Below are positions 1,400-56,315 of a stretch of 64,000 nucleotides of DNA, piece by piece. The DNA is from Mobula hypostoma (taxonomy: Eukaryota). The notes under the pieces are model-generated. The model saw only the letters and a list, made by a program, of their open reading frames with translations. It was not told the origin of the DNA and ran no database searches. The translations under genes were made by a program, and so were the position numbers. Within the stretch, counting starts at the first letter, position 1; every line of letters begins with the position of its first letter. Location: positions 62,498,001 to 62,562,000 of the forward strand of contig NC_086108.1 in assembly GCF_963921235.1 (NCBI RefSeq). Reading direction: 5' to 3'.

Positions 1400-2300
1400 A
1401 TCAACCTGGACCTTTCCATCAACAAAGAAGATAAAGCTTTAGATACTCTATGGAAGTTGTCACTGAGATTTATGGCATTCTGTACAAAGACCTTTTGACC
1501 ACGCCCTTGCAACGGACTTCTCTTACCCTCAGGGTCTAAGTCACATTGACTCTCAACTTTCTTAGCATCAGGTTGCTAAAGTGACCACTATCGATGTCTG
1601 CTTCAGCACAGACATCATGGAGATATTGTATTGAAAAGGAATGACTTCAATTAGAATGTCATCCACTGGGATTTGCTGGTGGTGCTTGTTTCCTATGAGA
1701 ACTGGCAGCTACTAGCAGTCCCTGCGTGCCCAGAAGAGCTCCAATTAGTAATCCAATATTTTCATCAATGGTAGCAAGATCAGAAAATCCTGGAAAAAAA
1801 ATCAAAAGGTCAGTCAATGTCTGTAGAAAGAGCAACAGAGTTCATGTTTCAGGTCAGTGAAATATTGTTGGAACAGTGCTGGTTCTAGCATAGTGTCAGT
1901 ACCACTGTTTCTCTCGCCTCAAATTTTACCTGACCAAATGAGAATTCATGGCATTTTCCACTTCTGTTTCATATTTCCAGCATCTGATGTAGCATGTTGA
2001 TTTTCTTTTCTTCACTTGCATAATGGGCAGATAGTTATGGGATATGAGAAGGTTTTTCTTGGAACTGCAGATCCTTCTTCCTGAGATTCCATTGTCTGCA
2101 TCAGACCAGGACATTCTTCATACAGCCTGAGCAGATGTGGAGAGTTATCACCATGTGTTGCATGCTGCACAATCTAGCAAACTGAAGGCAGCAGCTCATG
2201 CAGAAGAGAAGCATGGAGCCCCAAAATGCAAGGGACATGAGGCAGAGTCTGAAGGGTTGCAGAAAGAGAAGGAAAAGGGGAAGATGAAGGTACTTGGGAG
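1400..2300 (+). pseudogene. Degraded PIF/Harbinger (HARBI1-like) transposase remnant, split by an old repeat at ~1780-1990
   Basis: Manual translation gives RYSMEVVTEIYGILYKDLLTTPLQRTSLTLRV*VTLTLNFL(fs)ASG from 1441 and LRFHCLHQTRTFFIQPEQMWRVITMCCMLHNLA from 2081. These match Harbinger transposase N-terminal and C-terminal (RFxCL...CCxLHN) motifs. Confidence 0.65.
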
Positions 2301-2419
2301 GTGTCTATGCCCAGCATCTGCAATCTCATCTCTTTGCTGGGATGGACAACACTATCAGCACTGGCTATGAGATTCCCATGTAGAACAAAACTTTAAATTC
2401 ATAGCGGCATTGCATCACT

Positions 2420-2727
2420 TGGCGTGGCCAAGTGGTTAAAGCGTTCGTCTAGTGATCTGAAGGTCGCTAGTTCGAGCCTTGGCTGAGACAGCGTGTTGTG
2501 TCCTTGAGCAAGGCACTTAACCACACATTGCTCTGCGATGACACCGGTGCCAAGCTGTATGGGTCCTAATACCCTTCCCTTGGACAACATTGGTGGCATG
2601 GAGAGGGGAAACTTACAGCATGGACAACTGCCGGTCTTCCATACAACCTTGCCCAGGCCTGCGCCCTGGAATCCTTCCAAGGTGGAAATCCATGGTCTCA
2701 CGAGACTAACGGATGCCTAAAAAAAAA
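2420..2727 (+). mobile_element. tRNA-derived SINE with poly(A) tail and 11-bp TSD
   Basis: A box tggccaagtgg, B box gttcgagcc, core-like gtgtccttgagcaaggcacttaacc, A10 tail. TSD attgcatcact at 2409-2419 and 2728-2738. Confidence 0.9.
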
Positions 2728-2989
2728 ATTGCATCACTGACCAAAGAAACAAACCCTATTATGTCATGATGATCTCCAAGTACCTGTCCATACTGATCCT
2801 TTTTATTAGCACTTGGTCCAGATTCCTCTACACATCACTGATTCAAGAGTTCATCAAGATACTTATTAAAAATTGTGGAAGTAATTGCCTCCACCTACTC
2901 AAGCAGTATGTTTGTGATTCTAGATTCATATTTCCGCTGAGTCTTCTTTACTGTATTGTGCTGCTATGTTCGAGGTTTGTTGGTCTTTT

Positions 2990-3230
2990 TTAATGAGGTC
3001 CCTCTGTTCCTTGGTATTCCCCAGGACTCTACCATTCATGTATGTCCTAACCTTATTTGTCATCTCAAAATGCATGATCTCACACTTATCAGGATTAACT
3101 TCTATCTTATCCAATGAAATGATCAATGTCATCCTGTAGTCTACTGACAAACAACACACTGATTTTGTGTCATCTGCTAACTTACTAACCACATCTTCTG
3201 CATTTACATCCAAACAGTAAAGTCCCTGTC
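2990..3230 (-). mobile_element. Old CR1 RT fragment
   Basis: ORF 2926..3351 contains VSKLADDTK...NPDKCEIMHF...MNGRVLGNTKEQRDL. Confidence 0.75.
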
Positions 3231-3699
3231 CTTCAGGCTTCCCATTTCTAAAGGAACTCTCCACTTTATTTGTCCACCTGCACTGCATTTTCTCTATAAT
3301 AGTAACATTACATTCTGTATTCTGTTGTTCCCCGTTGTTCTGCTTTGACATACTTTTGTAAGGAATGTTCTGCCTGAATGGCGTGAGAACAAAAGCTTTT
3401 CACTGTATCTTGGTACCTGTGACAATAATAAACCAACCGATCACCATTAATTAATAGCCACCATCACCCTCTATCACTCCCCTATGTGACATTAGATATA
3501 CTGGCCTGTAACTACCTGGAATATCCCTGCTGTATTTCATGAATAAAGCGACAACACATTTGTTTTCATCCTGTCATCTGCCATTTTACTATGTTGCCTT
3601 CAAAACTTTAAAAAAATCACTGTCAAGTCCCTGGTAATCATTCCCTGGAGTGCCTCATTAGATCCTGGAGATTTATCTCACTAAGACATCTTAGTGAGA

Positions 3700-3792
3700 T
3701 TAGTGGGGTTATATGGGAGGCAGGGTTTAAAGGGTTGGCACAACATTGTGGGCCCAAGGGCCTGTACTGTACTGTACTATTCTATGTTCTAC
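3700..3792 (+). mobile_element. CR1 3' terminal fragment
   Basis: ggcacaacattgtgggcc..aagggcctgtactgt...ttctatgttcta closely matches the CR1 3' end at 47820-47875. Confidence 0.8.
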
Positions 3793-4894
3793 AAGGTCCT
3801 TTTTAATATTTCCCTCCCTGAATTTTCCAACTTTGTACTTCTCCTTAGTAAAAGCAGATGAAAAATATGATCTCTGCCTGAACATCTTGAAGGGAAATTC
3901 AGGAATGATCTAGCTGCTTTTCACAGCATGACAGGTGGATTTGAAATTAATTTTTTATGTACTGACCAGGTTCTTAGCAGCCAAGGGTTAATTTTTCACT
4001 TTGGCAAAGAAGGAATACAGTCAGATCTGACTGACTACCAATTACAAATCCCAGCTGTCACACACCCTGCCCGTTGCACAAATCTAGTCATATACCCCAC
4101 CCATTAATTGACCCAGTATTCTTCGATTAAGCCCACAACATTGCACATCTGGCCTGTTACTCATTGATTATTAAGAGCCCCACCCATCACATGTTTTGCC
4201 TATTCACACTCCTCATTTTACACCCCTATTACACAATATCTTTGATGTATTTCTATTGCTCACGCTGGTGTGGACTATGATACTCTTAAGAATCTCTGTT
4301 CTGGCCTATTACGTGCAGATTATTCTTCACCCTATCCATTGTACACTTATCTTGCTAGTGGTCTATTTCTCACTCTACCCAATACACCACTGTTATATTC
4401 TTCTCTCTCAATGTAGCTGCTACTTATCTCACTTACATAACCTCCACACATACTCCATCATTCAGTTGTATACGCACCTATTATGAAAGCATCCTTTACT
4501 TACTTATGATACAGAGGGTCCAAGCTGGCTCCCAGCGGAGAAATCACACCAGTCACTTCTATTTTTTTTTTAACAAAGGCACCTAGATGTTTATGAATAC
4601 TAATATTTAATTGGCATTAATGTTATTGACAATTAACATTAACATGACTTCAATTAGATGAAAATCTCCCACTCGGCTAAAATCTTTATAGTTTACCAAT
4701 TAATGAATCTTGCGTCCCTCCTAAAAAATGCACTCAGAACCACAAATGATCATATAGTACCATACTGAATACCCCCTGTAAATTTAATTATACATCCACT
4801 GGTTTTTTCTATATCTAGAATGCTAAGTTACATCCTCAAAAAAACTATAATAAATCTGTCCGTGCTGGAAGAAGGGATTATTTCTTCTGGCTCC

Positions 4895-5391
4895 ATGAAA
4901 TGACTATGGGGCTGCACAAGGACATACCTGATCAAATCTTTTCCATGGACGGCTTCCAGACCGTTCAGGCTGACCGGGAGTGCACTGAGAGCAGTAATCG
5001 TAAAGGAGTTGGGTGCTTACTGTTCTGGTTAACAATGGATGGTGCAATCCGGGTCATATTACAATCGAGGAACGTGCTCGTAGACCGGATATTGAACTTT
5101 TTGCTGTTGGACCCCAGCCATATTCCACCGAGATACAACACTGGGCGTCACGGGAGGTTGTTCCTGCCTGTGGCCATCGAACTTTGCAGCTCCTCCCGTG
5201 GAGGGTCAGGCACCCTGAGCTAATAGGCTGGTCCTGGACTTATTTCCATCTGGCATAGTTTGCATTTTGTTGTTTGATTGTTTGTGGTTTTTGTTTTGCT
5301 ATATTTATGCTGTATTCTTGGTTGGTGCGGCTGTAACGAAACCCAATTTCCCTTGGGATCAATAAAGTATATCTATCTATCTATCTATCTA
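4895..5391 (+). mobile_element. Rex1/Babar-like LINE, internally deleted (endonuclease piece joined to 3' end), with (ATCT)n tail
   Basis: DGFQTVQADRECTES...VNNGWC...PDIELFAVG is AP-endonuclease-like. It switches at ~5120 to the ORF C-terminus (RLFLPVAIEL) and ends aataaagta(tatc)n. Confidence 0.7.
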
Positions 5392-5775
5392 TAACTATTC
5401 ATTTGAACCTCCACTCATCCTCCACCCTAACTCATTACCAGACAGACAACTGATGCCAGAGCTACCTGCTCCTCACTTCTCACTTGAGGGCTACAGTTAC
5501 TTGACTAGTTGAAGTTTGACGCCAGGTTTGCCACAGATCTCATATGAGCAAGAAGTTTGGAATAATCACCCAGTGTTCCTCCCACCTGATTCTGCTTCTG
5601 GTTTGATTTTCATCAGAGCTTGTCCCTAAAATGCTCAATTTGATGGCTGGCATGAAATTCCACACTGCCTTGGCTGTCTCTGAAACATGAGCTTTTTTTT
5701 TAGCGCACTCTAGTTGTAAGTTTCACTTCAGTAAAGGGCTTTCTCAAATACTTTCTGAAGTACTGTACACTTGGT

Positions 5776-6490
5776 AATTGAATTGAATTGACTTTTCTTA
5801 CATCCTTCACATACATGAGGAGTAAAAATCTTTGTTACATCTCCAACTAAATGTGCAAAATGTAATTTATCATAATTTGTAATAAATAGTGTGTACAACA
5901 GGACAGTCAATATAGCAGAGAAATACAATTGTATCTGCGTGAATTAATCAATCTGATGGCCTGGTGGAAAAAGCTGTCCCAGAGCCTGTTTGATTTGGCT
6001 TTTATGCTATGGTACCATTTCCCGGATGGTAGCAGCTGGAACAGTTTGTGGTTGGGGTGACTCAGATCCCCAATGATCTTTTGGCCCTTTTTTCACACCT
6101 GTCTCTGTAAATGTCCTGAATAATGGGAAGTTCACATCTACAGATGTGCTGGGCTGTCCACACCACTCTCTGCAGAGTGCTGCGATTGAGGGAAGTACAG
6201 TTCCCATACCAGGCAGTTATGCAGCCAGTCATGATGCTCTCAATTGTGCCCCTGTAGAAAGTCTTTAGGATTTGGGGACTCATGCTAAACTTCCTCAACT
6301 GTCTGAGGTGAAAGGGGTGCTGTTGTGCTTTTTTCACCACACAGCCACTATGTACAGACCATGTGAGATCCTCGCTGATATGGATGCCAATGAACTTAAA
6401 GCTGTTCCCCCTCTCAACCCCAGATCCATTAATGTTAGCCTGTCTCCATTCCTTCTGTAGACCACAACCAGCTCCTTTGTTTTTGCCTGG
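5776..6490 (-). mobile_element. Rex1/Babar-like LINE 3' fragment
   Basis: ORF 6062..6340 KKAQQHPFHLRQLRKF...FYRGTIESIMTGCITAWYGNC. (TTCAA)n tail at ~5776-5790. Confidence 0.85.
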
Positions 6491-7011
6491 TTATACTTCC
6501 CACATAGAAACCTTTCACTCTGACCTGCAGGAAAGCTGACTCTGATTTTCTCCACACCAGCTGGGTGAATTCCATTGCCTCATCATTATTGTGAATGACA
6601 CTTGGTTGCATTCCACAGCAGAACAGTCACTGGCCATTTCAACAGCTGAACATGTGGGACTGGTGAATGATAGAGACAGTGGCACAAAACTGAGTCATAA
6701 ATTGGCTGCCCATTCTACATCTCACAGTTTTCTTTTCCATTATGAATGTAATTGAAAGGAACATTGGATGGGACATATAAAGGGTGCAGGGTGTGTGTAC
6801 TGGCTGGGTGGGGGAACATCTGAGGAGTGAGGGTGGTTGTATGATGGCAAGTATCTGAAGAGCAGATGTGCAGAATGCATGGCACAATAGTGACGTAATC
6901 TATCTGGAATTGCCTCTTCTCCCTGTGGCCTTATGGATTCCCATCAGATTCTCCAGTTTTCCTCATATCCCAGTAGTGCACTGGTAGATTAATTCACTGT
7001 TGTAAGTGATC

Positions 7012-7610
7012 ACAATCAGAACCAGAATCAGGTTTAGTATCACTGGCATATGTCGTGAAATTTGTTCACTTAGTGGCAGCAGTACAATGAAATACATGAT
7101 ACATATAGAAAAAAATAAATGAATTACAGGAAGTATATATATATGTATATTAAATAGGTTATTTAAAAATAGTACAAAAACAAAAATAATTTAAGAAGTG
7201 AGCTAGTAGTCATGAGTTCAATGTCCATTTAGAAATCAGATGACAGATGGAAACAAGCTGTTTCTGAATCGCTGAGTGTGCGCCTTCAGGCTTCTGTACC
7301 TCCTTCCTCACAGTAACAACGAGAAGAGGGCATGTCCTGGGTGATGGTAGTCCTTAATGACGGATGCCAACTTTCTGAGGCCCCGCTCCTTGAAGATGTC
7401 CTGGAAACTGACAGAGGCTAGTACCGTCGATGGAGCTGACTAATTTTACAACTCTCTGCAACTTACTTCAATCCTATGCAGTAGCCCCTTCCCATGTACT
7501 AGACGGTGATGCAGCCTGTCAGAGTGCTCCCCATGGTACATCAGTAAAAGTTTTTGAGTGTTTTAAGTGACAAACCAAATCTCTTCAAGCTCCTAATGAA
7601 ATACAGCCAT
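7012..7610 (-). mobile_element. Rex1/Babar-like LINE 3' fragment
   Basis: Reverse complement of a typical 3' end (aaacctgattctggttctg tail) plus C-terminal coding remnants. Confidence 0.75.
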
Positions 7611-9670: not shown

Positions 9671-10985
9671 ACATTAATTATCAATATTTCAAACATACGC
9701 ATTTTAGTTCTATTACCTTTTTTATGCTTTTCAGTTTTTAAAATATTTGATTATATATTGTATCACAAAATAAATAAATATAAATGATTTGCTTTCTTTT
9801 GGAATGATCTTATCAACAGCCTGTTGATAACTTTGATAGGTGGTTGAGCCAGTGAGTCCAAATTAGCCAGTTATCAAAGTTTCTCAACTGACTACCCCTC
9901 AGCACATGAAGCAATTTGCAAAAGGACAACCTGTCCATCTCAGAAGTGATGGATTTTCAATGTCCAGGAAATCCATAACCATGTATTCAGAAAAATTATG
10001 CATGAATTTAGTCCTTAAAGCACAGATGGCTTCCTCCTGACTACAAAATCTTAGCCACAGAGTCCTTTGCCAGGAAGAGTTGTCCTTGCACATTTAGGTT
10101 TTTGATTTTTTGCCAGCTGCTGATAAGGTGAGGTGACAGTATTTCACTATATGAAATAGGAAGAGGAAGTCTTAAGCCTTGGAATATTTTTAATATGTTA
10201 AAGATGCCAGTAATTAATACTGATTGGAAATGAGAAAGGGAAAATGATAGAAAGAAAAACAAATAAGACCTTTAAAGAATTTCCAATTTAATTTCACCCT
10301 GAATCCCTACATTCTTAATGGCTCCTTTTAAGTACCAGAGAACTGAATATCACAATTAGCACTAAACACCCTGAGAAATGGATATCTTTCACTTGTAATG
10401 ACAAGACTTAGCTTGTTTGTTTGTAACTCCTATACATTGTATATCATTGGAAAAGTAGATGACAAGATGCTACTTCTATGAAGTTATCAGCAGAGAGGAA
10501 AAATACTGCTCAGCTACTTTTGGAAATTGACATTTAAATATGCATCTGATCCTCTGCTCATGTTACTGAACCGTATACCCATTACAATAATCATCAACTC
10601 TATGCGTCTCACAGTTATTTTGGTACCGAAGTCTGGCTCCAGAAAATGTACAAATCCTCTTGTTCTGGAAGATATCGATCATTGATTTATTAGAAATAAT
10701 TGAACAAATTCTGGAACTCATTGACTGAATTGTTAAGGTATTATCAACCTCATCTTATTGAGTATTTGGGTTATATATGTGATGTTCAGATTATTTAACA
10801 TTGTGAAGAGCACAGAGCCAAAGGGCATTTCCACAGAAAGAAGTCACAGGATATATGACTATTGTTGTTACCTGTAATATCAATTTTCGATAAAGGAACC
10901 AATAGAGAATCTTCAGAGAGTTATTAAAAGAGCCAAGACCCTTTCAGAATTAAAATTGGAATTCAAAGGTATAGTGTGTGCATCC

Positions 10986-11202
10986 TGCTATGTTTTGTAA
11001 CTTCAATACATTGAGATAATTGACAAGAAAACAAAGAAGTCTGAACTGCGAGTCCAACTTAGTTTTTTTAAGTAAGGTGCCCACAGTAGTGTTATTTTTT
11101 ACATATAACCCGTAATGAATTATTTAAATGAAGAAGAACGCTTAATCAAACAATATATTTGCAGTATTACTCAAATATTAATGAAATACTAGATACACAA
11201 CA
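10986..11202 (-). repeat. 3' LTR
   Basis: Shares catataacc..aatgaattatttaaat...gcttaatcaaacaat...tacacaaca with 13322-14579, 17086-17338 and 56082-56315. Polypurine tract immediately inside. Confidence 0.85.
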
Positions 11203-11359
11203 CTCCTCCCTGCATACTCAACTCAATACAGAATGCAGCTCAGTATTCCATGTAATACAACTACTATACTGCCATTCAGAGCATAGAGTTTTTTATATTG
11301 TCCCATTCAGGCCCAAAGATTTAATCTCTGTGGAGGATTTCTTATTCTTGTGGGATAAC

Positions 11360-11714
11360 CTTTCGTCCCTCTTCCCTCCAGGAGAAGGCTCAGGAGCTTG
11401 AAGACTCATACAGCCAGATTTGGGAACAGCTTCTTTCCAACTGTGATAAGACTGCTGAACGGATCCTGACCTGGATCTGGGCCATACCCTCCAAATATCC
11501 GGACCTGCCTCTCGGTTTTTTTGCACAACCTTACTTTCCATATTTCTATTTTCTATTTATAATTTATAATTTAAATTTTTAACATTTACTAATTTTTAAT
11601 ATTTTTAATATTTAATATTTGAAATTCAGGGAGTGGGAAACACAGAATCAAATATCGCTGTGATGATTGTGCGTTCTAGTACCAGTTGTTTGGAAACAAT
11701 AAAGTATAAAGTAT
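11360..11714 (+). mobile_element. Rex1/Babar-like LINE 3' fragment inserted in the Gypsy 3' internal region
   Basis: aacagcttctttccaactgtgataagactgctgaac (NSFFPTVIRLLN) and aataaagtataaagtata tail. Confidence 0.8.
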
Positions 11715-11851
11715 AATATCTTTCCTGACAAGGGGAGCCACTCTGTTTGACAGGTGAGACTTGTGGCTGTGGAACAATCTCAGGTGATGGGGCCTCCTCT
11801 ATGGTGGTTGACTCTGAGACCGCTGGAGGTGGTTCTGATAGGCCTGGACAC

Positions 11852-12413
11852 CTTTCTTGTCCTTTTTCTTCTTTCTAGAATGCACTTCTTGATCTTGGGA
11901 AAGTGTGTCGAGTTCACTGGAGTATTCTCTTAATAATTCTTCTATTGCTCCTTTTAAGATCTGATCTCTCCTCTTGGTTTCCTCATCTACAAAGCCATCT
12001 GACGAATCCTCTGTTTTTGTATCTCCATTGATTCCTTTATTTCTGGCCTTCCATTTGTCCAGCTTGGTTTTGGTCTTTGCATCTACTTTTACAAGCAGCT
12101 TTTTGTCTCGCGCTTGAAGTTCATACAATAACCTTAATACACACAGAGTAGATTCTGGTTCTTTATATTCACAAAAGCAGAATGCTTGCAACTTTTCTGA
12201 AGCTCCTTGAACTCTCTCCCAGCTTAAAACCTAGCCACATTTTACAAATAACTGCCTGATTAACATATCAGAAGCTTTCTCAGATATGTTGCCTACAAAA
12301 TCTGTTGTGGTCAGATCAGTACTTTCATCACTTTCAGTCTTCCTTTGAGCAGCATAGGCTTTCCTTGCTCTAATATTCTTTCCAGCTGAAGACAGAGAAG
12401 TTGGCCCAAATAC
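11852..12413 (-). pseudogene. RBM25: Intronless RBM25 (RNA-binding motif protein 25) fragment covering the RRM and following acidic/basic region, one in-frame stop
   Basis: One frame reads VFGPTSLSSAGKNIRARK...TTTDFVGNISEKASDMLIRQLFVKCG*VLSWERVQGASEKLQAFCFCEYKEPESTLCVLRLLYELQARDKKLLVKVDAKTK...DEETKRRDQILKGAIEELLREYSSEL...SRKKKKDKK. This is colinear with vertebrate RBM25 as I recall it (TTTVFVGNISEKASDMLIRQLLAKCGLVLSWKRVQGASGKLQAFGFCEYKEPES). TAG at 12231-12233; no introns. Confidence 0.93.
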
Positions 12414-12459
12414 CCATTTCCCCACTGCTGGGCAATGGTTCATGGTGTACAGCATGGAG

Positions 12460-12876
12460 ACAGTTGTGGCATCATCCAGTACCTTTCTTAATTCACTTTC
12501 AGTTGACTCTATTACAGGGGATGTGGCATACAAATGGTGGATGGATTGCCAATTAATGTGTAGTCATCTCAGACAATCATGCCACTCAACAACGCCGGCC
12601 CTCCTGTTTTTACCACATACAAGCCAAATGTGGCTTGTTGATTGTTACGTTTCACGTTTACAAATGTTATTCCCACAGGAGGTATCTTTTCTCCAGTACA
12701 AGTTCTTAGTTGGATATCTGCAGGCTTCCATTCAGTATCTTTGAAATGCCGTACAAATTCATTTTGTGGAATGACTGAAACAGCGGAGCTAGAGTCTAAA
12801 TCCATTTTAATTAATTTGCCGTTCACTTCTGATGTAAGCCATATTGCTTGCCTACTGTTAGTTTACACATTGTAAG
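12460..12876 (-). pseudogene. Gypsy aspartic protease and linker remnant
   Basis: NGKLIKMDLDSSSAVSVIP (decayed LDTG motif) and ATSPVIESTESELRKVLDDA, homologous to 20775-21168. Confidence 0.85.
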
Positions 12877-13550
12877 TCTTAATATTAGCAAAGCTCATTT
12901 CAGCTAGCTTGGTTGGAGCAGTTAAACTTTGAAGCAAACTGCATGCCTTTACATCCAATCCACTCAGCAAAATTGGCACTCACTTCCCATTGGCTATTCC
13001 ATTTAATTTTAAATACTGTCATTTTGTATACTGTACTGTATACAGTAATGGAACATGTCTATCTTTCCAATGAGGTCAGCTAATTCTACTTTTTTTTAAT
13101 GATTATTATCACCCTGCTCTCACTGTTTATGAAATCGTGTATTCTTCTATTTCCTGCCTTTTTTAAACTCGATCATGTCTCCCCTTCTGAAGCACATGTG
13201 TTGTGCTGCTTTTCCTTACTCAACCATTTCCTTGCACTTCTTTTAAAAACTTGTACCTCTTGCTGTGCTTCATCAGGTAGGTGGTATTCCTGGGTTCATT
13301 TTAAAAATACCTCACTTGCATTATTATGTTTTGTGACTCCAAAACATTAAACTAATTGAATGGAAATCAAAGGAGTCCAAAATGTGAGTCTAACTTCATT
13401 TTTTTTTACTTTAAATGAGGTGCGAAAATTTACAGGGTAGTGTCATTTTGTACGCAATTCACTTACTTTTGCATATAACCCAAAATGAATTATTTAAATA
13501 AACAAGAATGCTTAATCAAACAATGTATTTGCAGTATTACTCAAATATTA

Positions 13551-14235
13551 AAATAAGGAGGAGGAGAAGATGGCGGCGTGACGCAGCTTGCCCGGCCACT
13601 CCTGTGAATGATATCTGTAATCTGTCAAGTAGGGTGCCGTGCACAGTCCTGATTTGATGGAGACAGACGTGAGAGAATGGAGGAACATCTGGAGAAACTT
13701 CTGAAATGCCTTTTTCGCTGCCGCTGTTACTGTGTGATCCAGAATCTCCGGAGGGGAAGGCCCCGAGTCCTTGGCTTTGCTTGTTGCTCTGCGGTCGGGA
13801 CAGAGTTGAAGTGCTCAGCAGAGATGGTGCTTGGTGTCGAAGGGCTGGTTGGAGGCTCAAAGTTTTCGGACGGACACAGTGTCGGCTGTGGTCGGGTGCT
13901 TCCAGTGCATCAACAGTTGTCTGTGCCTAGAGGTTTATGGCAGGGAGAGTTTCTCCCTTCTGCCACCTGCTATCGGGGACTATCAGGAATTGATCGGACT
14001 TTGAGACTTTTTTTTACCGTTCCCATGGTCTGCTCTTTATCAAATTATGGTATTATTTTGCACTGCTGTAACTATATGTTATAATTATGTGACTCGTCAG
14101 TGTTAGTCTTTGGTTTGTCCTGTTTTTTTTTGTGATATCACTCTGGAGGAACATTGTATCATTGCTCCATGCATGCATTTCTGAATGACAATAAATGAGG
14201 ACTGAGTGCCCTCATAATCTAACCTAATCTAATCT
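13551..14235 (+). mobile_element. Non-autonomous LINE-derived element (GC-rich 5' end, (TAATC)n tail, no RT)
   Basis: Begins gaggagaagatggcggcg and ends gacaataaa...ctaatctaatct. Apparent TSD aatatta at 13544-13550 and 14236-14242. Confidence 0.65.
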
Positions 14236-14251
14236 AATATTACTGAAATAT

Positions 14252-14551
14252 ATATATTTTTTAATATAATTTTTATTGAGTTTTCAAAAAGAATACATGA
14301 AAAGATAATATCTACCCTCCCTCCTCCCCTTAACCCTCCCCTCCCCATATAAAGTCCTACCTAAAAAAGAAAAGAAGAAAAAAAAGAAGAGCCACCTGGG
14401 TATTGGAAGGTTTCCACATGCTCCATGGAATTCAAAATAAATTTGGTATACTTATTCGTTACTTTCCCCAAGGGACCAAGATCTTTATCAGAGCACTTAA
14501 ATATGCCATCCTATCTTTTGTAAATAAGGGCGCCAAATATTCAAAAATGTT
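14252..14551 (-). mobile_element. L1/Tx1-clade LINE 3' end with 15-bp TSD
   Basis: TSD atattactgaaatat at 14237-14251 and 14552-14566. Minus strand encodes FLNIWRPYL (resembles an L1 ORF2 C-terminus), then a G-rich UTR, aataaa and an A-rich tail. Confidence 0.7.
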
Positions 14552-15809
14552 ATATTACTGAAATATTAAATACACAACACATGTACCCTCCATATAATAC
14601 TAGATATAATGATGCATCACTAAACTTGTTAACAAAACATATACCTTGTTTAATTCACTCTTTTCCACCTCACTGTCAGCATAGGCAAAGGTCAGGCAGG
14701 CATTTACATTCAATATACAGCGTTTCCCTTTTAAAATGAATTGCAAATTCATATTACAAATAGATTTAGTATCTCCTGAGTCTCTTAGATTTTCTGAAAG
14801 GAATTTTCATTGTTGACATTTGATTCTCAACCTCTCTAACATTATTCTGTTCCAATGGCAAGAGAGTATGTTATAGTGGTATGCAAGCAGGATGGACTAT
14901 CCCAGAAAGTCTACAGCTTTGAGATCAGACCCAAAGAAAGCTCAATGCAATTAGTAAAACATAGGCAGGGAATGGTCCTCATTGTTAAAAAAACTGTTGT
15001 CCCTCATGTGATGAATCGGTTCTCCTCCATGCTGAACAACATCTAAAAGAAAGTTATAAAAATTACTCAGGGAAGGGATTTCAATATCCCATCATTGAGT
15101 AGATTGCTTGAGTTGAAATCCTAAAGGACATGACTGCCAGAAAGAATTTTAAGAACACACAAGTTATGAAGGAGCAGGAGCAGGACACACGGCAGCATCA
15201 GAATCATACCGTGCTGTTTAAAATGGCTCTCTCCATGGCTTGAGATATAATTCCATTTTTGCTTCCCTTTCACTCTTTCCTCAAGATTTGACAGAAATAA
15301 ACTGAGTTGTTTTCTGAGTGATCTAAGCATTAATAAGTCAGCAGGACAATAATCCTTTGTGGAATATGCCAGCAAAAATATTTGTTAATTGAGATGCCTT
15401 CATTTTCATTTATATCAATACTTTGTAAACTTGCTTTCCATACTGTTGTTTTAGGAAGGAAACCCCATTGGTAAATAATTCATGTTACAGGAGTTTCTTT
15501 GGTCAACTACCTTTTTTCAGATTGCATAGAATCCTTTTACCATGATAGTTAAAGCACTTTGCCATTTTGAAATGACATGAAATTGATTCAAATTGGCCAT
15601 TACATTTAGACCAGCAATTCGTGCCAGTCCCTCCATTTATTTCATATTCTGTTATAATTATCCTCTCTTGTACTCCACTCCATTCTCATACTAGTGTCAC
15701 AAACTAACCTTTCACTGATTGAATTTCTCTGCCATTCTGGATAACATTTCCACAGGCATTTTAAATGTAAGATTTAATAATCTCATCTGAATATAGATCT
15801 GTAGCATCT

Positions 15810-16845: not shown

Positions 16846-18083
16846 AAACATGCAGATATATATTTCAGTGCTTCATGTATGACAGCTTGAGCCATTTTGT
16901 TTTCCTTGTCTTGGTGCTTTTCCTGCCATGACGTTTGATGTCATACCAAAATATACAGGCTTTCCTATCATTTTTGTGCTCTCTTATCTTAAAGATCTTT
17001 CCTTCGATGCATTAAAATAATCAGTACACCTTTCTCAATGTCATTCCCATGTTGTTGAATCTATCAGAATCTTTGATATCCCAATTGTTGTGTATTTAAC
17101 ATTTCAGTAATTTTTGAGTAACATTGTAAATATATTGACCGATTAGGATTTCTTTGTTTGCTTAAATAATTCATTATGGATTATATGTGAAAGTATGTGA
17201 ATGGCTTATGTCATCACGTCACCATATCATAAGCATGTGCCTCACTAAAGTTAAAAACAAAACTAAATGTACATTAATTATCATCACCTCCATATTTTCT
17301 TTCAATTAGCTTTATACTTTGGAGTTACAAAATTAATAGTGGGAACAAGTAATTCTTAAAAAGAAGCATGACTCTCTTCCTGTTGAAGTGAGCCCTTGTT
17401 TTTTGTTGCAAGGGGAGAAAGACAGTTGCGCTAAAAAAGGGCAGAAAATGGACAAAATTCATGAGTTCATAAAGAATGAAAACCAGGTAAAGATAATAAT
17501 ACATGCTTGAAAAAGCAGAAATGGCTGGCTCATTGAAAAGATAGATGTGTGTAATTGTACGAAAGATAACTGGGGGATGTATACTGAGCAAATTCAGTAG
17601 TATTTTAAAACAAATGGAATGGCCAATGAAATGAGAAATGAGTGTCAGTGTTGCTGAGTATAATAGGTGGAAAAGCATTCAGTTTGCTTAGAGGTTTGAC
17701 TGTTCCAACCAAACCACCTGAAATGAGCTTTGCTGATATCATGCAAGTCATGCAGGAACATTTAGAAGTGAAAAATTTGTTGATTGTGGAATACTTTAGG
17801 TTCCATAAGTGGAATCCATTTCAGCATATATGGCTGATTGAAAAGATGTCTGAGCATTACCAGTTCAGTGATAGGCTTAATGATGCACTGAGAGATCATT
17901 TAGTTTCTTGACACTTACAAAAAAGCTTTCAGAAACAGCTCCAAACTGAAGCACAAGTCACATTTAAAAGAACAGTTGAAATTGCTGACAACAGGAATTC
18001 TGCAGATGCTGGAAATTCAAACAACACACATCAAAGTTGCTGGTGAACGCAACAGGCCAGGCAGCATATCTAGGAAGAGGTGC

Positions 18084-18119
18084 AGTTGACGTTTCAGGCC
18101 GAGACCCTTCGTCAGGACT
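18084..18119 (-). ncRNA. Minimal hammerhead ribozyme-like motif (stem I mismatch)
   Basis: Minus strand: AGTC CTGACGA AGGGTCTCGGCCT GAAA CGTC AACT. Confidence 0.55.
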
Positions 18120-18132
18120 AACTGAAGGAAGA

Positions 18133-19923
18133 AGCATAGAAGCATAGAAAATAGGTGCAGGAGTAGGCCATTCGGCCCTTCGAGCCTGCACCGCCATTTA
18201 TTATGATCATGGCTGATCATCCAACTCAGAAACCCGCCCCAGCCTTCCCTCCATACCCCCTGACCCCCATAGCCACAAGGGCCATATCTAACTCCCTCTT
18301 AAACATAGCCAATGAACTGGCCTCAACAGTTTGCTGTGGCAGAGAATTCCACAGATTCACCACTCTCTGTGTGAAGAAGTTTTTCCTAATCTCGGTCCTA
18401 AAAGGCTTCCCCTCTATCCTCAAACTGTGACCCCTCGTTCTGGACTTCCCCAACATCGGGAACAATCTTCCTGCATCTAGCCTGTCCAATCCCTTTAGGA
18501 TCTTATACGTTTCAATCAGATCCCCCCTCAATCTTCTAAATTCCAACGAGTACAAGCCCAGTTCATCCAGTCTTTCTTCATATGAAAGTCCTGCCATCCC
18601 AGGAATCAATCTGGTGAACCTTCTTTGTACTCCCTCTATGGCAAAGATGTCTTTCCTCAGATTAGGGGACCAAAACTGCACACAATACTCCAGGTGTGGT
18701 CTCACCAAGGCCTTGTACAACTGCAGTAGTACCTCCCTGCTCCTGTACTCGAATCCTCTCGCTATAAATGCCAGCATACCATTCGCCTTTTTCACCGCCT
18801 GCTGTACCTGCATGCCCACTTTCAATGACTGGTGTATAATGACACCCAGGTCTCGTTGCACCTCCCCTTTTCCTAATCGGCCACCATTCAGATAATAATC
18901 TGTTTTCCTATTTTTGCCACCAAAGTGGATAACTTCACATTTATCCACATTAAATTGCATCTGCCATGAGTTTGCCCACTCACCCAACCTATCCAAGTCA
19001 CCCTGCATCCTCTTATCATCCTCCTCACTGCTAACACTGCCACCCAGCTTCGTGTCATCCGCAAACTTGGAGATGCTGCATTTAATTCCCTCATCCAAGT
19101 CATTAATATATATTGTAAACAACTGGGGTCCCAACACTGAGCCTTGCGGTACCCCACTAGTCACCGCCTGCCATTCTGAAAAGGTCCCGTTTATTCCCAC
19201 TCTTTGCTTCCTGTCTGCTAACCAATTCTCCACCCACACCAATACCTTACCCCCAATACCGTGTGCTTTAAGTTTGCACACTAATCTCCTGTGTGGGACC
19301 TTGTCAAAAGGCTTTTGAAAATCCAAATATACCACATCCACTGGTTCTCCCCTATCCACTCTACTAGTTACATCCTCAAAAAATTCTATGAGATTCGTCA
19401 GACATGATTTTCCTTTCACAAATCCATGCTGACTTTGTCCGATCATTTCACTGCTTTCCAAATGTGCTGTTATCACATCCTTGATAACTGACTCCAGCAG
19501 TTTCCCCACCACCGACGTTAGGCTAACCGGTCTATAATTCTCTGGTTTCTCTCTCCCTCCTTTTTTAAAAAGTGGGGTTACATTAGCCACCCTCCAATCC
19601 TCAGGAACTAGTCCAGAATCTAACGAGTTTTGAAAAATTATCACTAATGCATCCACTATTTCTTGGGCTACTTCCTTAAGCACTCTAGGATGCAGACCAT
19701 CTGGCCCTGGGGATTTATCTGCCTTCAATCCCTTCAATTTACCTAACACCACTTCCCTACTAACATGTATTTCACTCACTTCCTCCATCTCACTGGACCC
19801 TCTGTCCCTTACTATTTCTGGAAGATTATTTATGTCCTCCTTAGTGAAGACAGAACCAAAGTAATTATTCAATTGGTCTGCCATGTCCTTGTTCCCCATA
19901 ATCAATTCACCTGTTTCTGTCTG
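18133..19923 (-). mobile_element. Young 5'-truncated CR1 LINE with uninterrupted RT frame
   Basis: [10 protein letters not shown]...[11 protein letters not shown]...SKFADDTK...RPHLEYCVQFWSP to stop at 18226. (TTCTATGC)2 tail. Near-identical to 50280-52057. Confidence 0.97.
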
Positions 19924-20283
19924 AAGAGTGAGTAAGGGATTTGAAAGTTGGAGGGAGAGGGGGAGATCCAAAATGATAGGAGAAGACAGGAGGGGGAGGG
20001 ATGGAGGCAAGAGCTGGACAGGTGATAGGCAAAAGGGATACAAGAGGATCATGAGACAGGAGGTCCGGGAAGAAAGACAAGGAGCGGGGGAGACCCACCC
20101 CTTGCCCATCCTCTGGGTCCCCTCCCCCTGTCTTTCTTCCCGGACCTCCTGTCCCATGATCCTCTCGTATCCCTTTTGCCAATCACCTGTCCAGCTCTTG
20201 GCTCCATCCCTCCCCCTCCTATCATTTCGGATCTCCCCCTCCCCCTTCAACTTTCAAATCCCTTACTAGCTCTTCCTTCAGTT

Positions 20284-20319
20284 AGTCCTGACGAAGGGTC
20301 TCGGCCTGAAACGTCGACT
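20284..20319 (+). ncRNA. Minimal type I hammerhead ribozyme motif
   Basis: AGTC-CTGACGA-AGG(gtctcgg)CCT-GAAA-CG-TC|GACT. Stem I AGTC/GACT, CUGANGA and GAAA cores, palindromic ACGU stem III, predicted GUC cleavage after 20315. Confidence 0.7.
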
Positions 20320-21169
20320 GCACCTCTTCCTAGAGATGCTGCCTGGCCTGCTGCGTTCACCAGTAACTTTGATGTGAGTTGAAATTGCTGTATCAATGGA
20401 AAAAGCAGTTGGAGATGCAATTGAGTTGTAGGCAGGAATGAAAGTGAGGATGAACAAAATTACAGAACAGAAACTGGCCTGGCTGAAAAAACTCTGTTAC
20501 CATTGTGGCAGGAGTTCATACACACCAGAATGCAGGTTTAAAGACAAAACATGCAGAGACTGCAACAAAGGAGGACACATACAAAGAGCATGTCAGGCAG
20601 ACAAATATAAATGCATGGCACAAGGAAGAAATAAAGTTAAAAAATCAAGTTGCAGTTTCAAAAAGGGCACTAATCTGCATGCTGTTGATGAAAAATGGTG
20701 AAATAGGACTGGGTAGCATTGAGGTTTACAATGTGAAAAGTAATAATAGATAAGCAATATGGTATGCATCACAAGTGAACAGCAAGTTAATTAAAATGGA
20801 ATTGGACACTGGCTTGACTGTTTTGATCATTTCACAAAATGAGCGTAAGCACCATTTCAAGGATATTGAACCAAAAGCCTGCAGATCTCCAACCAAGAAA
20901 TTATACTGGAGAAAAGATAACTCCTGTGGAAACAACATCTATACCAGTGACATAGAACAACCAACAAGCCACATTGGGTTTGTATGTGATAAAAACAGCA
21001 GGGCCAGCATTGTGGGGCCGTAATTGGTTGACACAATTACAACTTGATTGGAAAATCATCCACTATTTGCATGCCACATCCCCTGAAATAGAGTCAACTG
21101 AAAGTGAATTGAGAAAGGTACTAGATGATGTCACTGCAGTGTTCAAGGATGGCATTGGAAAACTCTAAC

Positions 21170-23850
21170 ACAATGATTTCCAATGGGGGCGGTTACATAT
21201 CCTGAGCGGGCGGTAGGGAAATAGAAGTTGTTGGGGGGCATTCAAGATTCTTGAGGGGGTGGCAGTAAGCTCCTGACTGACAGAGACATGACTGACCATG
21301 TCAACTCACTGCCATCCTCAACATTGATAGGCATTCCCAGTCTGTGTTAACTTTTTATTTTAATTTAGCCCTGTTACTGATAGGTAAAGATGTAAGGCAC
21401 AGTCCCTGTAAGTCTGAAGGTGGTGAAACCTCAAATTCTAATCCTGCTAAGAAACAAAAACTATGGAAAGTGTGTCAATACAATGTCACATACCTGGAGT
21501 ATAGTTTTATTCCATTCCCGTCAGATCAGCGATGCCCCATGTATCTTATCTGTAATACTGTACTGTCTACTGAAGTCATGAAACCATCAATATTGCAGGA
21601 ACCCTTCTGTAAAAGACACCCTGAAAAGGCTACTTATGATATTGCTCAGTTCCAGGAGATGAAAGAAGCATTTGAAAAACATTGCACACGCGAGTCTTTT
21701 GCCTAGAAAGCTAAAAGTGACTTTGATAGTTGTCTCATAGCTTCTATAACATTCCCAAAATGATAGCAAAGTGTGGAAAATGTCATACAACTGGTAAAAG
21801 ATTAAGTATGCCTGCTGTATCAAGTGGTCACCACTGTTCTTAAAATGGACACCAGTATTTAAAGATCAATTCCACTGAGTAATAACTCTACAGTTCGTAA
21901 TATTGATGAAATCAGTGAAAACATGGAATATCAACAATGCACAGAGCTACAAAAAACAGAATTTGGGATACAACTGGATGAGTCAACTGTGCAAGATGAG
22001 GCATTGCTAATGACATATTTACGGTTAATCAAAAATTGAAAAGTTTATAAAGAGATTCTCTTTTGCAAAAAGTTAAAAACAAATATCAATAGAGAATCAA
22101 TCTATGATGAGCTCAAAATGTACATTCAGTATAAAAGTATTCCAATTAAGAACATGAGTTCCTGTGCAATAGGTGGATGCCCATATACAGTGCCTATAAA
22201 AAGCATTCACTGCCCCCCCCGAGGTTTTCATTTTTATTGTTTTACAACATTGAATCACAGTGGATTTAATTTGGCTTTTTTGTGACTGATCAACAGAAAA
22301 ATACTCTTTTGTGTAAAAGTGAAAGCAGATCTCTACAAAGTGATCTAAATTAATTACAAATATGAAACACAAAATAATTGATTGTATAAGTATTCACCCC
22401 CTTTAATATCATCACTGGTGCAGCCAATTGGCTTTACAAGTCACATAAATAGTTAAATGGAATTCACCTGTGTGCAGTCAAGATGTTTCAATTGATTGTA
22501 GTAAAAATACACCTGTATCTGGAAGGTCCAACAGCTAGTGAGTCAATATCTTGGCAAAAACTATACAATGAAGGTAAAAGAACACTTGAAACAACTCTGT
22601 GACAAGGTTATTGGAAAGCACAAGTCAGGAGATGGATACAAGAAAATTCTGAAGTCACTGAATATCCCTTGGAGTACAGACAAGTCAATCATCAAGAAAT
22701 GGAGGAAATATGACACAGCTGTAGGTCTGTCCACAAAAATTGAGTGACCATGTAAATAGGGGACTAATGTGGGAGGTCACCAAGAGACCTATGACAACCG
22801 TGGAGGAGTTACAAGCTCCAGTGGCTGAGATGGGAGAGACTGTGTGTACAACAACTGTTGTCCAGGTGCTTCACCAGTTGCAGTTTTATGGGATAGTGGT
22901 AAAGAGAAAGCCACTGTTGAAAAACTCGCATGAAATCTCAGCTAGAGTTTGCCAGAAGGCATGTGGGAGACTCTAAAATCAACTGGAAGTAAGTTCTATG
23001 GTCTGATAAACCCAAAATTGAGCTTTTTGGCCATCAGACTAAATGCTATATTTGGCATAAGCCAAACACTGCACATCATCAAAATCACACCTTCCCTACC
23101 GTAAAGCATGGTGGTGGCTGCATCATGCTGTGGGTGTCAGGATATTTCACTGCAGCAGGCCCTGGAAGGCTTGTGAAGGTGGAGGGTAAAATGAATGTAG
23201 CAAAACACAGAGAAATCTTGGAGGAAAACATGATGCAGTCTGCAAGAGAACTGTGACTTGGGAAAAGATTTGTTTTCCAGCAAGACAATGACCCAGAGCA
23301 TAAAGCTAAGGCTACACAGACAGGGTTTGAAAACAACAACAAAGTTAGTGTCTTGGAGTGGCCAAGTCAAGAGTCCAGACCTCAACCCAAATGAGAATTT
23401 GTTGCTGGTCTTGAAAAGTGATGCTCATTCATGATCCCCATACAATTTGACAGAGCTTGAGCAGTTTTGTAAAGAAGAATGAGGGGAAAAATTGTAGTTT
23501 CCAGATATGCAAAGCTGATATAGACCTATCCACACAGACTCGGGCTGTAATTGCTGCCAAAGGTGCATCTACTAAATACTGACTTGAAGGGGGTGAGTAA
23601 TTATGCAATTAATTATTGTGTTTTATATTTGCAATTATTGTGTTTTATATTTGCAGAGATCTGTTTTCACTTTGACACGAGAGCGTCTTTTCTGTTTGTT
23701 CTGTGTCAAACAAGCCAAATTAAATCCAATCTGTTTCAATGTTGTAAAACAATGAAACATAAAAACTTCCAAAGGGTGGGGGGTGAATACCTTTTAAAGG
23801 CACTGTATGACTGGTCATCATGCTGGTTTAGTGACATTTATGTTTAGTGC
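21170..23850 (+). mobile_element. Decayed hAT (Buster/Charlie-like) transposon, interrupted by Tc1 and truncated by CR1
   Basis: TIR-like caatgatttccaa. BED-finger-like QYNVTYLEYSF...LICNTVLSTEVMKPS...KRHP, then PLSNN and FGIQLDEST. SCAIGGCP|MTGHHAGLV continues across the Tc1 insertion. Confidence 0.85.
22188..23805 (+). mobile_element. Full-length (1618 bp) Tc1-like IR/DR transposon with inactivated DD34E transposase
   Basis: TA TSD at 22186-87 and 23806-07, CAGTGCCT...AGGCACTG ends, ~215-bp inverted repeats. Disrupted ORF 22568-23583 with HKSGDGYKKI, WSD, KHGGGCIM, FQQDNDPEH and SPDLNPNENL. Confidence 0.95.
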
Positions 23851-51900: not shown

Positions 51901-51971
51901 TTAAGAGGGAGTTAGATATGGCCCTTGGGGCTACAGGGGTCAGGGGGTATGGAGGGAAGGCTGGGCTCTGA
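48930..51971 (+). pseudogene. CR1 ORF2 (AP endonuclease + reverse transcriptase) with one premature stop
   Basis: NARSI, GITETW, YRPP, GDFN and SDH endonuclease motifs. RT motifs PQGSVLGP and FADD. TAG at 51180-51182 where the copy near 19020 has GAG; the same frame continues to 51971. Confidence 0.95.
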
Positions 51972-56081: not shown

Positions 56082-56315
56082 TGTTAGGTTTTGTAACTCC
56101 AAAAATTAATCGAAAGAAAAACATGGGGAGCATGGGGATAAATGTGTGAACTTTATTTTTATTATTAGTGAGGAGCACACGTATGATGTGGTGACGTGAT
56201 GATATATGCCATTCATGTCCTTTTACATATAACCTCTAATGAATTATGTTAATGAGAAAGAATGCTTAATCAAACAATATATTTACAATATTACTGAAAT
56301 ACTAAATACACAACA
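56082..56315 (-). repeat. Solo LTR of the same Gypsy family, lying within an old CR1 remnant
   Basis: tgttaggttttgtaactcc...gaatgcttaatcaaacaatatatttac...aaatacacaaca, homologous to the LTRs at 10986, 13322 and 17086. Confidence 0.85.

What the first reader, a model, noticed from the sequence alone, without database searches (positions are those of the whole stretch)
10986..14579. Gypsy LTR retrotransposon that has captured a spliced RBM25 mRNA fragment in place of RT-RNaseH-integrase
Seen on minus: 5'LTR, deleted gag, protease, linker (...ELRKVLDDATTV), ~46 nt of unassigned sequence, ~560 nt of intronless RBM25 (RRM region), element 3' internal tail, PPT, 3'LTR. There is no poly(A) and no TSD around the RBM25 piece, it has the same polarity as the element, and element sequence is missing exactly where it sits. 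The sister copy at 17086-21168 continues FKDGIGKL at that point, so the RBM25 piece is foreign to the family. Established: vertebrate RBM25 is a multi-exon gene; retroviruses and LTR elements can capture cellular mRNA by template switching during reverse transcription; LINE-made retrocopies usually have poly(A) and TSDs. Inference: this is an oncogene-capture-style chimera and may be an amplified non-autonomous subfamily carrying a splicing-factor RRM.
Basis: partly seen in the sequence, partly recalled or inferred. Interest (0 to 1): 0.88.

Follow-up and report, generated by a model that had tools for sequence, protein, structure and literature searches.

The report
Gypsy subfamily multiplied spliced RBM25 cargo
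This is one old, dead copy of a jumping-gene family that swapped its own copying enzymes for a spliced piece of the host splicing-factor mRNA RBM25 and then spread with that cargo to probably a few thousand places in this ray-like genome: a known kind of capture, at an unusually large scale.

Summary
Confirmed and extended. The element (14579-10986, minus strand) is a Ty3/Gypsy LTR element. About 2.5 kb of RT-RNaseH-integrase is replaced by spliced RBM25 mRNA that crosses five exon junctions of the parent gene found in this genome. The 'unassigned 46 nt' is a 48-nt in-frame RBM25 cassette exon, also in a shark record. The 5' junction sits on a 7-nt microhomology inside the preceding exon, in frame with gag-protease. 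The junction occurs 908 times (25-mer, up to 2 mismatches) against 1934 uninterrupted sisters; I estimate about 3,300 copies (1,900-7,100). The original capture was longer (about 1,070 nt, 9-nt microhomology at the 3' end); this copy's 3' junction is most likely a later deletion scar. Elements carry 5-bp target-site duplications. The tree is star-like, decay is neutral (omega 0.9) with fourfold CpG loss, and 0 of 57 frames are open. The same junction is in a Hypanus sabinus record. The mechanism is known (Tan 2016: template switching, then spread in trans); the scale exceeds the 1-5 copies of the precedent given there. No evidence that the cargo was selected. The scan found this family before on other DNA of this genome (four notes).

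The parts
14580..14584 (-). Left target-site duplication (5 nt, decayed; 3 of 5 match the right one)
   Evidence: The family-wide 5-nt TSD signal is 41 of 70 matches against 21.1 shuffled.
13322..14579 (-). 5' LTR (about 245 nt of LTR sequence) interrupted by about 1 kb of later insertions (about 13559-14550)
   Evidence: The TGTTG start and the 13551-13325 part align with the 3' LTR at 16% mismatch. 13559-14229 matches a repeat in other loci at 74-81%.
12882..13321 (-). Decayed primer-binding site, leader and gag start; about 600 nt of gag deleted at 12882/12881 in this copy
   Evidence: (P0156 aa 27-74).
12587..12862 (-). Aspartic protease remnant
   Evidence: P0156 aa 276-367 at 49%; Pfam protease domains at P0156 aa 286-376.
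12472..12586 (-). Protease-RT linker up to ...ELRKVLDD
   Evidence: Aligns with 10 of 10 pol-bearing sisters up to 12465-12491.
12465..12471 (-). 5' switch point: 7-nt microhomology TGCCACA shared by pol and the end of RBM25 exon 3 (my numbering); in frame
   Evidence: P(7 nt or more) at random joins is 0.0007.
12414..12461 (-). 48-nt in-frame RBM25 cassette exon (parent G000:C1:99832633-99832586)
   Evidence: AG/GT flanks in the parent intron. The same peptide starts shark record P0121; 1 of 159 held proteins has it.
11852..12413 (-). RBM25 exons 4-7 spliced (12413-12243, 12242-12185, 12184-12024, 12023-11852), covering the RRM; one stop at 12230-12228; ends 5 nt short of the exon 7 end
   Evidence: About 18.6 kb of parent introns are absent across the five junctions.
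11852..11858 (-). AAGAAAG shared by RBM25 exon 7 and the element tail: most likely the scar of a deletion that removed exons 8-10 of the original cargo
   Evidence: Longer copies run to exon 10 and enter the tail at the same point.
11713..11851 (-). End of the integrase-coding tail of the element (read out of frame after the cargo)
   Evidence: Matches pol-bearing sister L080 at 5895-6049.
11359..11712 (.). Later insertion of an unrelated repeat, absent from the other copies
   Evidence: about 84% matches in other held loci.
11203..11213 (-). Polypurine tract
10986..11202 (-). 3' LTR (TG...CA)
10981..10985 (-). Right target-site duplication (decayed)
17086..21168 (+). Sister copy of the uninterrupted family (LTR, gag, a 2.4-kb LINE insertion, protease; cut off 30 nt after the switch point). 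A comparator, not part of the chimera

Best explanation
An active Ty3/Gypsy element co-packaged a spliced RBM25 mRNA (cassette-exon isoform). Its reverse transcriptase switched templates twice at short shared sequences: GAGAAGAAA (integrase tail / exon 10) and TGCCACA (exon 3 end / protease-RT linker). The product kept both LTRs, the primer site, PPT, gag and protease, and carried about 1,070 nt of RBM25 in place of about 2.5 kb of RT-RNaseH-integrase. It was then copied in trans by the enzymes of intact sisters in a burst, to roughly 3,000 sites. During the burst it lost purine-rich 3' parts of the cargo in steps, and the shortened forms were copied again. All copies were later methylated and decayed neutrally. 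The window's copy is one shortened, gag-deleted fossil. Shown: structure, junctions, exon content, copy counts, TSDs, neutral decay. Inferred: co-packaging, template switching, mobilisation in trans, deletion order, methylation.
For: Five parent exon junctions crossed. Both original junctions lie inside exons on 7- and 9-nt microhomologies; random-join P 0.0007 and 0.00007. 29 of 29 best other matches and 40 of 40 junction-picked loci share the 5' junction. 45 of 56 copies with a tail enter it within 7 nt of one point. 908 junction matches against 0 for the control pattern. Among 68 chimeras with hits to P0156, at most 1 has a hit at any sampled position beyond aa 440, while sister L080 covers aa 63-1243. 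5-bp TSD: 41 of 70 matches against 21.1 shuffled, P 0.0002, 14 elements. Chimera-sister distance 0.196, sister-sister 0.196, chimera-chimera 0.187, so they are of the same age and lineage. Star tree, median tip 0.096. Omega 0.91 and 0 of 57 open frames. CpG transitions 40% against 10%.
Against: No read-level check of this copy's junctions was obtained. Only 14 of 70 copies had both ends recognisable for the TSD test, and the window's own TSD matches at 3 of 5. The copy samples are biased: 29 by likeness to this copy, 40 by an exact junction. An independent second switch at the AG-rich site cannot be fully excluded for the window's 3' end; Tan et al. describe such a return hotspot. One copy (L089) enters the tail 170 nt earlier. 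The near-fixed differences from the parent (19 synonymous, 3 nonsynonymous) are read as change in the host gene but could not be polarised at the DNA level.
Confidence: 0.93

Rival explanations
1. Splice capture: elements in or near RBM25 introns made a read-through RNA that was spliced into and out of RBM25 exons, then reverse-transcribed.
For: Both ends of the window's piece lie within 10 nt of exon borders. The commonest deletion resumes at or next to the first base of exon 9.
Against: The 5' join is 10 nt inside exon 3 and the window's 3' end is 5 nt short of the exon 7 donor. The long forms end about 28 nt inside exon 10. All original joins sit on microhomology, not on GT/AG.
Confidence: 0.03
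2. A LINE-made processed RBM25 pseudogene inserted into a Gypsy element, flanking deletions removed pol and the poly(A), and the composite then spread.
For: LINEs are abundant in the window (a 675-aa RT-type ORF), and this family is prone to deletions.
Against: It needs two deletions that both end on microhomology between cargo and pol. No copy among 70 aligns further 5' than position 162 or further 3' than about 1235 of the host reference (exons 2-11 only), and no poly(A) is seen at the printed junctions.
Confidence: 0.03
3. The cargo helped the element spread. Either the Gag-protease-RRM fusion acted in particles or on splicing, or the RNA of an essential host gene blunted small-RNA silencing.
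For: In-frame 5' fusion. No shared frameshift or stop 5' of the deletion scar other than one stop allele at 25-70%. The chimera makes up 908 of 2842 (32%) of junction-region matches. All shared deletions spare the RRM part, and the 8 deletions that start in or before it are private.
Against: In-frame fusion has a 1-in-3 chance. A star-like burst leaves no time for internal mutations. 195 of 278 direct-repeat pairs start 3' of position 745 anyway, so about four shared deletions all falling there is unremarkable (about 0.7^4). Non-autonomous forms commonly outnumber autonomous ones without any cargo (PMC10924933, abstract).
Confidence: 0.15
4. The copies arose by DNA-level segmental or tandem duplication of one chimeric locus.
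For: One copy (L022) has a tandem repeat of the junction and cargo.
Against: Matches are dispersed over many contigs on both strands (469 forward, 439 reverse), with unrelated flanks and their own 5-bp TSDs.
Confidence: 0.01

Closest known systems
LTR-mediated retrocopies / pseudo-LTR retrotransposons of animals (Tan et al. 2016, PMC5131818; parts 1, 2 and 4 of 8 and 12 passages read; supplements not seen)
   Same: Partial spliced mRNA replaces internal ORFs; microsimilarity at both switch points (median 6 bp there); no poly(A) or TSD at the cargo; both LTRs kept; same polarity; secondary retroposition as a non-autonomous element.
   Different: Scale and history. [quoted passage not shown] Here there are at least 908 and probably about 3,000 copies, about a third of the family, with stepwise re-amplified deletions, in an old burst that predates a species split.
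Maize Bs1 (as described in PMC5131818)
   Same: LTR element with host exons in place of its enzymes; all copies share switch points.
   Different: One to five copies, three donor genes, plant host; discussed there as possibly protein-coding. This family has one donor, thousands of copies, and all tested copies are dead.
HERV-K capture of FAM8A1; mouse IAP-flanked retrocopies (as cited in PMC5131818)
   Same: A vertebrate LTR element captured a spliced mRNA with microsimilarity at the joins.
   Different: Endogenous retroviruses rather than Ty3/Gypsy; no copy number near this scale is given in the passages read.
Acutely transforming retroviruses with gag-onc fusions (recalled, no call)
   Same: Helper-dependent genome with host coding sequence fused in frame to gag.
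   Different: No env in the intact relative, and no sign of selection on the cargo.
Pxyfem retrocopies of Plutella (PMC9674220, abstract and opening text only)
   Same: Multicopy partial cDNAs of a host gene made by retrotransposons.
   Different: Those produce piRNAs that silence the parent gene. Small RNAs were not tested here, and the copies are now about 13% diverged from the parent.

Membership tests
Ty3/Gypsy LTR retrotransposon (non-autonomous derivative) | Two direct LTRs with TG...CA ends | tested here: met
   about 245-nt LTRs, TGTTG...ACA; 15-25% mismatch in 11 chimeric elements.
Ty3/Gypsy LTR retrotransposon (non-autonomous derivative) | PPT before the 3' LTR and primer-binding site after the 5' LTR | tested here: met
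   PPT at 11213-11203. A TGG-type site follows the 5' LTR in several copies and is decayed in the window; the priming tRNA was not identified.
Ty3/Gypsy LTR retrotransposon (non-autonomous derivative) | 4-6 bp target-site duplication | tested here: met
   5 bp: 41 of 70 matches, P 0.0002; no signal at 3, 4, 6 or 7 bp; 14 elements.
Ty3/Gypsy LTR retrotransposon (non-autonomous derivative) | Domain order gag-PR-RT-RNaseH-IN in the autonomous partner | tested here: met
   P0156 has this order; sister L080 aligns colinearly over aa 63-1243; RVT_1 in sister L082 just after the switch point.
Ty3/Gypsy LTR retrotransposon (non-autonomous derivative) | Clade placement by RT phylogeny | not tested
   No RT tree was built.
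LTR-mediated retrocopy (Tan et al. 2016) | Intronless partial mRNA crossing exon junctions | tested here: met
   5 junctions in the window copy, up to 7 in long copies by coverage to exon 10.
LTR-mediated retrocopy (Tan et al. 2016) | Cargo replaces internal ORFs rather than interrupting a continuous element | tested here: met
   L080 3413 to 5895 (about 2.48 kb) is missing.
LTR-mediated retrocopy (Tan et al. 2016) | Microsimilarity at both switch points; no poly(A) or TSD at the cargo | tested here: met
   7 and 9 nt; printed junctions show no poly(A).
LTR-mediated retrocopy (Tan et al. 2016) | Secondary amplification with shared switch points | tested here: met
   908 matches; 29 of 29 and 40 of 40 share the 5' junction.
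LTR-mediated retrocopy (Tan et al. 2016) | Co-transcription from the LTR | not tested
   No reads were laid on the stretch.
Oncogene-capture-type (gag-onc) transducing element | In-frame fusion of cargo to gag, helper-dependent | tested here: met
   The frame runs from the linker into RBM25; RT, RNaseH and integrase are absent.
Oncogene-capture-type (gag-onc) transducing element | Cargo protein active and selected | tested here: inconclusive
   Copies decay neutrally. The star tree leaves too few internal changes to test the burst itself.
Oncogene-capture-type (gag-onc) transducing element | Retrovirus with env and an infectious cycle | tested here: not met
   The intact relative P0156 is a single gag-pol ORF with no env domain; the tail after integrase is short.

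The most novel reading that the evidence does not exclude
The RBM25 cargo was not a passenger. It gave the defective element an edge, either as a Gag-protease-RRM fusion or as RNA of an essential gene that small-RNA defence could not hit hard, and so let it reach a third of its family. Ray Gypsy families may have repeatedly won with fragments of host RNA and chromatin regulators: unchecked notes of this scan list SUDS3, EDC4, 4E-T and USP35 cargos in this genome and CLIP1 in a shark. That would be an anti-silencing-by-capture strategy in a vertebrate germline. The plain alternative is that abundant, purine-rich germline mRNAs are captured by chance.
Probability: 0.15. Interest if true: 0.85.

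Novelty: new variant of a known kind. Interest (0 to 1): 0.57.

Why it matters
It shows that LTR-mediated gene capture in a vertebrate can run to thousands of copies, far above the 1-5 copies given for Bs1. It is a large natural experiment on template switching, deletion and spread in trans. It preserves a spliced RBM25 isoform with a conserved elasmobranch cassette exon, presumably from the germline. It also confounds annotation: a Hypanus gene model starts with this junction, and gene-family or retrocopy counts for RBM25 in rays would be inflated. Shared insertions can date batoid splits. If cargo identity proves non-random across the several captured families noted in this genome, it makes the question 'do transposons gain from captured host genes?' testable in an animal.

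Tried and rejected
PF01480 search for the parent gene gave SRRM1-like and PRPF3-like exons, not RBM25; the 120 kb fetched on C2 were irrelevant. Pfam named none of 10 window frames at its cut-offs, and the PDB search found nothing. My first idea that both ends are exact exon borders was rejected. Linkage among 73 intermediate-frequency alleles found no pair at P<1e-4, so there are no point-mutation subfamilies. Retention of the RRM part is not distinguishable from chance. Sequencing runs: no RNA holder listed; 20 of 24 rows hold part of the stretch, none half or more; shares of 0.43-0.48 and 0.23-0.34 in two organism codes and 0.20 in two more hint at orthologous copies, but no reads were laid, so junction support and expression stay open. 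The neighbouring EDC4-type element noted earlier is a different family: no DNA match to this family's LTR element, gag-like match only. I could not confirm its cargo. Literature: RBM25 + LTR retrotransposon gave 6 papers, none on this by title or abstract start; RBM25 + cartilaginous fish + retrotransposon gave 0; none of the 25 listed of 1,398 ray papers held RBM25; some searches listed reviews and plant cases only. The main text of bioRxiv 10.64898/2026.10.27.761883 has 0 hits for RBM25 or retrocop (supplements closed). Supplements of that paper and of PMC5131818, Repbase/Dfam and retrocopy databases were not seen and may list this family. No paper on RBM25's cassette exon was found among the 12 listed.
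Full report
Verdict. The element is one fossil copy of a large non-autonomous Ty3/Gypsy subfamily that carries spliced RBM25 mRNA in place of RT-RNaseH-integrase. The mechanism is known; the scale is unusual. The host is inferred to be a ray from protein relatives; it was not told.

Anatomy of the window copy. On the minus strand the element runs from TGTTG at 14579 to the LTR end at 10986, 3594 nt. The 5' LTR is split by about 1 kb of later insertions. Its 13551-13325 part matches the 3' LTR with 31 mismatches in 193 aligned bases. An intact relative, P0156, has the order zinc knuckle, protease, RT, RNaseH, integrase. It matches the window at aa 27-74 and 276-367 only. The gap is a 600-nt gag deletion that no other examined copy shares; all 11 large gag-protease deletions seen among the 70 copies were different. 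After the cargo come the end of the integrase-coding tail, a 354-nt foreign insertion, the PPT (11213-11203) and the 3' LTR.

The cargo is spliced RBM25. The translated piece hits RBM25 proteins at up to 67% identity. The parent gene was found with the C-terminal part of a gar RBM25 at G000:C1, minus strand. The window piece aligns to five separate parent segments at 84-90%. These are a 48-nt exon and exons of 171, 58, 161 and 172 (of 177) nt, preceded by the last 10 nt of the exon before; about 18.6 kb of intron is missing. It has a pyrimidine tract, AG and GT in the parent and keeps the frame. Its peptide is identical over 14 residues to the start of a Heptranchias perlo record, and 1 of 159 held proteins carries it. 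So the captured RNA was a cassette-inclusion isoform.

Junctions. Pol-bearing sisters read ...GATGATGCCACA|GCAGTG; 10 were examined. The parent mRNA reads ...CCTGCCACA|ACTGTC. The chimera takes pol up to the shared TGCCACA and RBM25 after it, in frame. Longer copies continue through exons 8-10 and enter the element tail at a shared GAGAAGAAA. Random joins of pol and this mRNA give 7 nt or more in 0.07% and 9 nt or more in 0.007% of 200,000 trials. In sister L080 the two points are 2.48 kb apart, and L080 aligns to P0156 over aa 63-1243. Of 56 copies with a tail match, 45 enter within 7 nt of the same point (14 of 70 had no tail match). The window's 3' junction (AAGAAAG, 11858-11852) is therefore most simply a later deletion from the long form. 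An independent return at an AG-rich hotspot is not excluded.

Amplification. The cargo found 2805 first-look candidates in the 3.48-Gb genome; 40 were scored and 30 loci fetched. All 29 other loci cross the same 5' junction. A 25-nt junction pattern with up to 2 mismatches matches 908 places, 469 forward and 439 reverse, with 0 for the control. The matching pattern for uninterrupted pol gives 1934. Only 8 of the 29 body-picked copies pass that filter, which scales to about 3,300 copies (95% range 1,900-7,100). I fetched 40 of the first 100 listed junction matches. All 40 carry the cargo: 15 short, 7 mid, 7 long and 11 truncated. One deletion scar near the end of exon 7 is shared by 8 of 8 mid and 30-32 of 33 short copies, so shortened forms were themselves re-copied. 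In the 14 of 70 elements with both ends recognisable, 5-nt flanks match at 41 of 70 positions against 21.1 when shuffled (P 0.0002); other lengths show nothing. These are integrase-made insertions, not segmental duplications.

Age and state. I used the 57 of 70 copies that cover the cargo to position 700 or beyond. They differ from the parent by 13.0% and from each other by 17.2%. None is free of both stops and frameshifts, and omega for non-shared changes is 0.91. CpG sites show 40% transitions against 10% elsewhere, which points to methylation. The tree is a star: median tip 0.096, host branch 0.042, 6 of 55 inner branches supported, bootstrap not fully settled. Near-fixed differences from the parent are 19 synonymous and 3 nonsynonymous. 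One of the three restores the shark residue and two lie at the deletion scar, so these fit host-gene change since capture. Upstream of the junction, chimeras are as far from sisters (0.196) as sisters are from each other (0.196), so helpers were of the same age. A Hypanus sabinus gene model begins with the same junction. Locus L145 shares 7 of its 19 rare residues, against at most 3 for 72 other copies, yet differs at many others. That suggests an orthologous insertion older than the split of the two species. L145 was picked as the best of 1350 candidates, so this is probable, not proven. No calendar date is given because no rate was tested.

Mechanism, most likely (0.93). Co-packaging of spliced RBM25 mRNA, two microhomology-guided template switches, spread in trans by intact sisters, stepwise loss of the purine-rich 3' cargo, then silencing and neutral decay. 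The structure, counts and decay are shown; the enzymology is inferred from Tan et al. 2016. Splice capture (0.03), a LINE retrocopy with flanking deletions (0.03) and segmental duplication (0.01) fit worse. A benefit of the cargo (0.15) is compatible with the main account but unsupported. The fusion is in frame and shared deletions spare the RRM, but 70% of direct-repeat pairs start 3' of it anyway.

Comparison with what is known. Tan et al. (PMC5131818; parts 1, 2 and 4 of 8 and 12 passages read) describe this structure in flies, fish, chicken and mammals and predict secondary spread. They give one to five copies for maize Bs1 and more than one site for two fly cases. The element meets the four structural features I could test; co-transcription was not tested. 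It works like a gag-onc capture in layout but is not a retrovirus, and selection on the cargo is not shown. Non-autonomous forms dominating a family is known without cargo (PMC10924933, abstract). Retrocopy-derived silencing of a parent gene is known in a moth (PMC9674220, abstract and opening text). My searches found no paper on this family, but repeat libraries and supplements were not seen.

Earlier notes of this scan. I stated my reading before opening them. Four notes describe the same family at other places in this genome and agree. Others list SUDS3, EDC4, 4E-T and USP35 cargos here and CLIP1 in a shark. I checked only the EDC4-type neighbour: it is a different family with a gag-like and protease-like start, and I could not confirm its cargo. 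These notes shape the novel case but are not evidence.

Score. Interest 0.57: clean, well evidenced and far larger than the precedents I read, but mechanistically known and dead. New variant of a known kind.

Noticed in passing
G000:C1:99832633-99832586 (parent RBM25); P0121: A 48-nt in-frame RBM25 cassette exon whose peptide is identical between this genome and a sevengill shark record but absent from the other held RBM25 proteins; its regulation is unknown.
   Followed up: partly
P0123 (Hypanus sabinus); L145:1507-1750: A predicted 'GTF2IRD2-like' protein starts with 80 aa from this chimera's junction; probably an annotation artefact or exonisation of an orthologous copy.
   Followed up: partly
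window 18238-19926 and 50277-51965: Two LINE copies 98% identical in inverted orientation, one with a 675-aa RT-type ORF, inserted in the sister Gypsy element: a young LINE family.
   Followed up: no
window 56152-56306: A third LTR-like piece of the same Gypsy family (79-80% identity), perhaps a solo LTR.
   Followed up: no
L022 (G000:C96:22.42 Mb): Tandem duplication of the pol-RBM25 junction and part of the cargo within one copy.
   Followed up: partly
L089 (G000:C67:49.97 Mb): A chimera that enters the element tail about 170 nt earlier than the rest, suggesting recombination with a pol-bearing sister.
   Followed up: no
   Followed up: partly
window 22222-23767: 118-nt inverted arms around frames that look like a Tc1-type transposase (label recalled, not tested).
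   Followed up: no
window 45894-47560: Nested long inverted repeats (207, 272 and 87 nt arms, 77-78%), a decayed palindromic element.
   Followed up: no
window 61864-62089: Tandem array with a 30-nt period.
   Followed up: no
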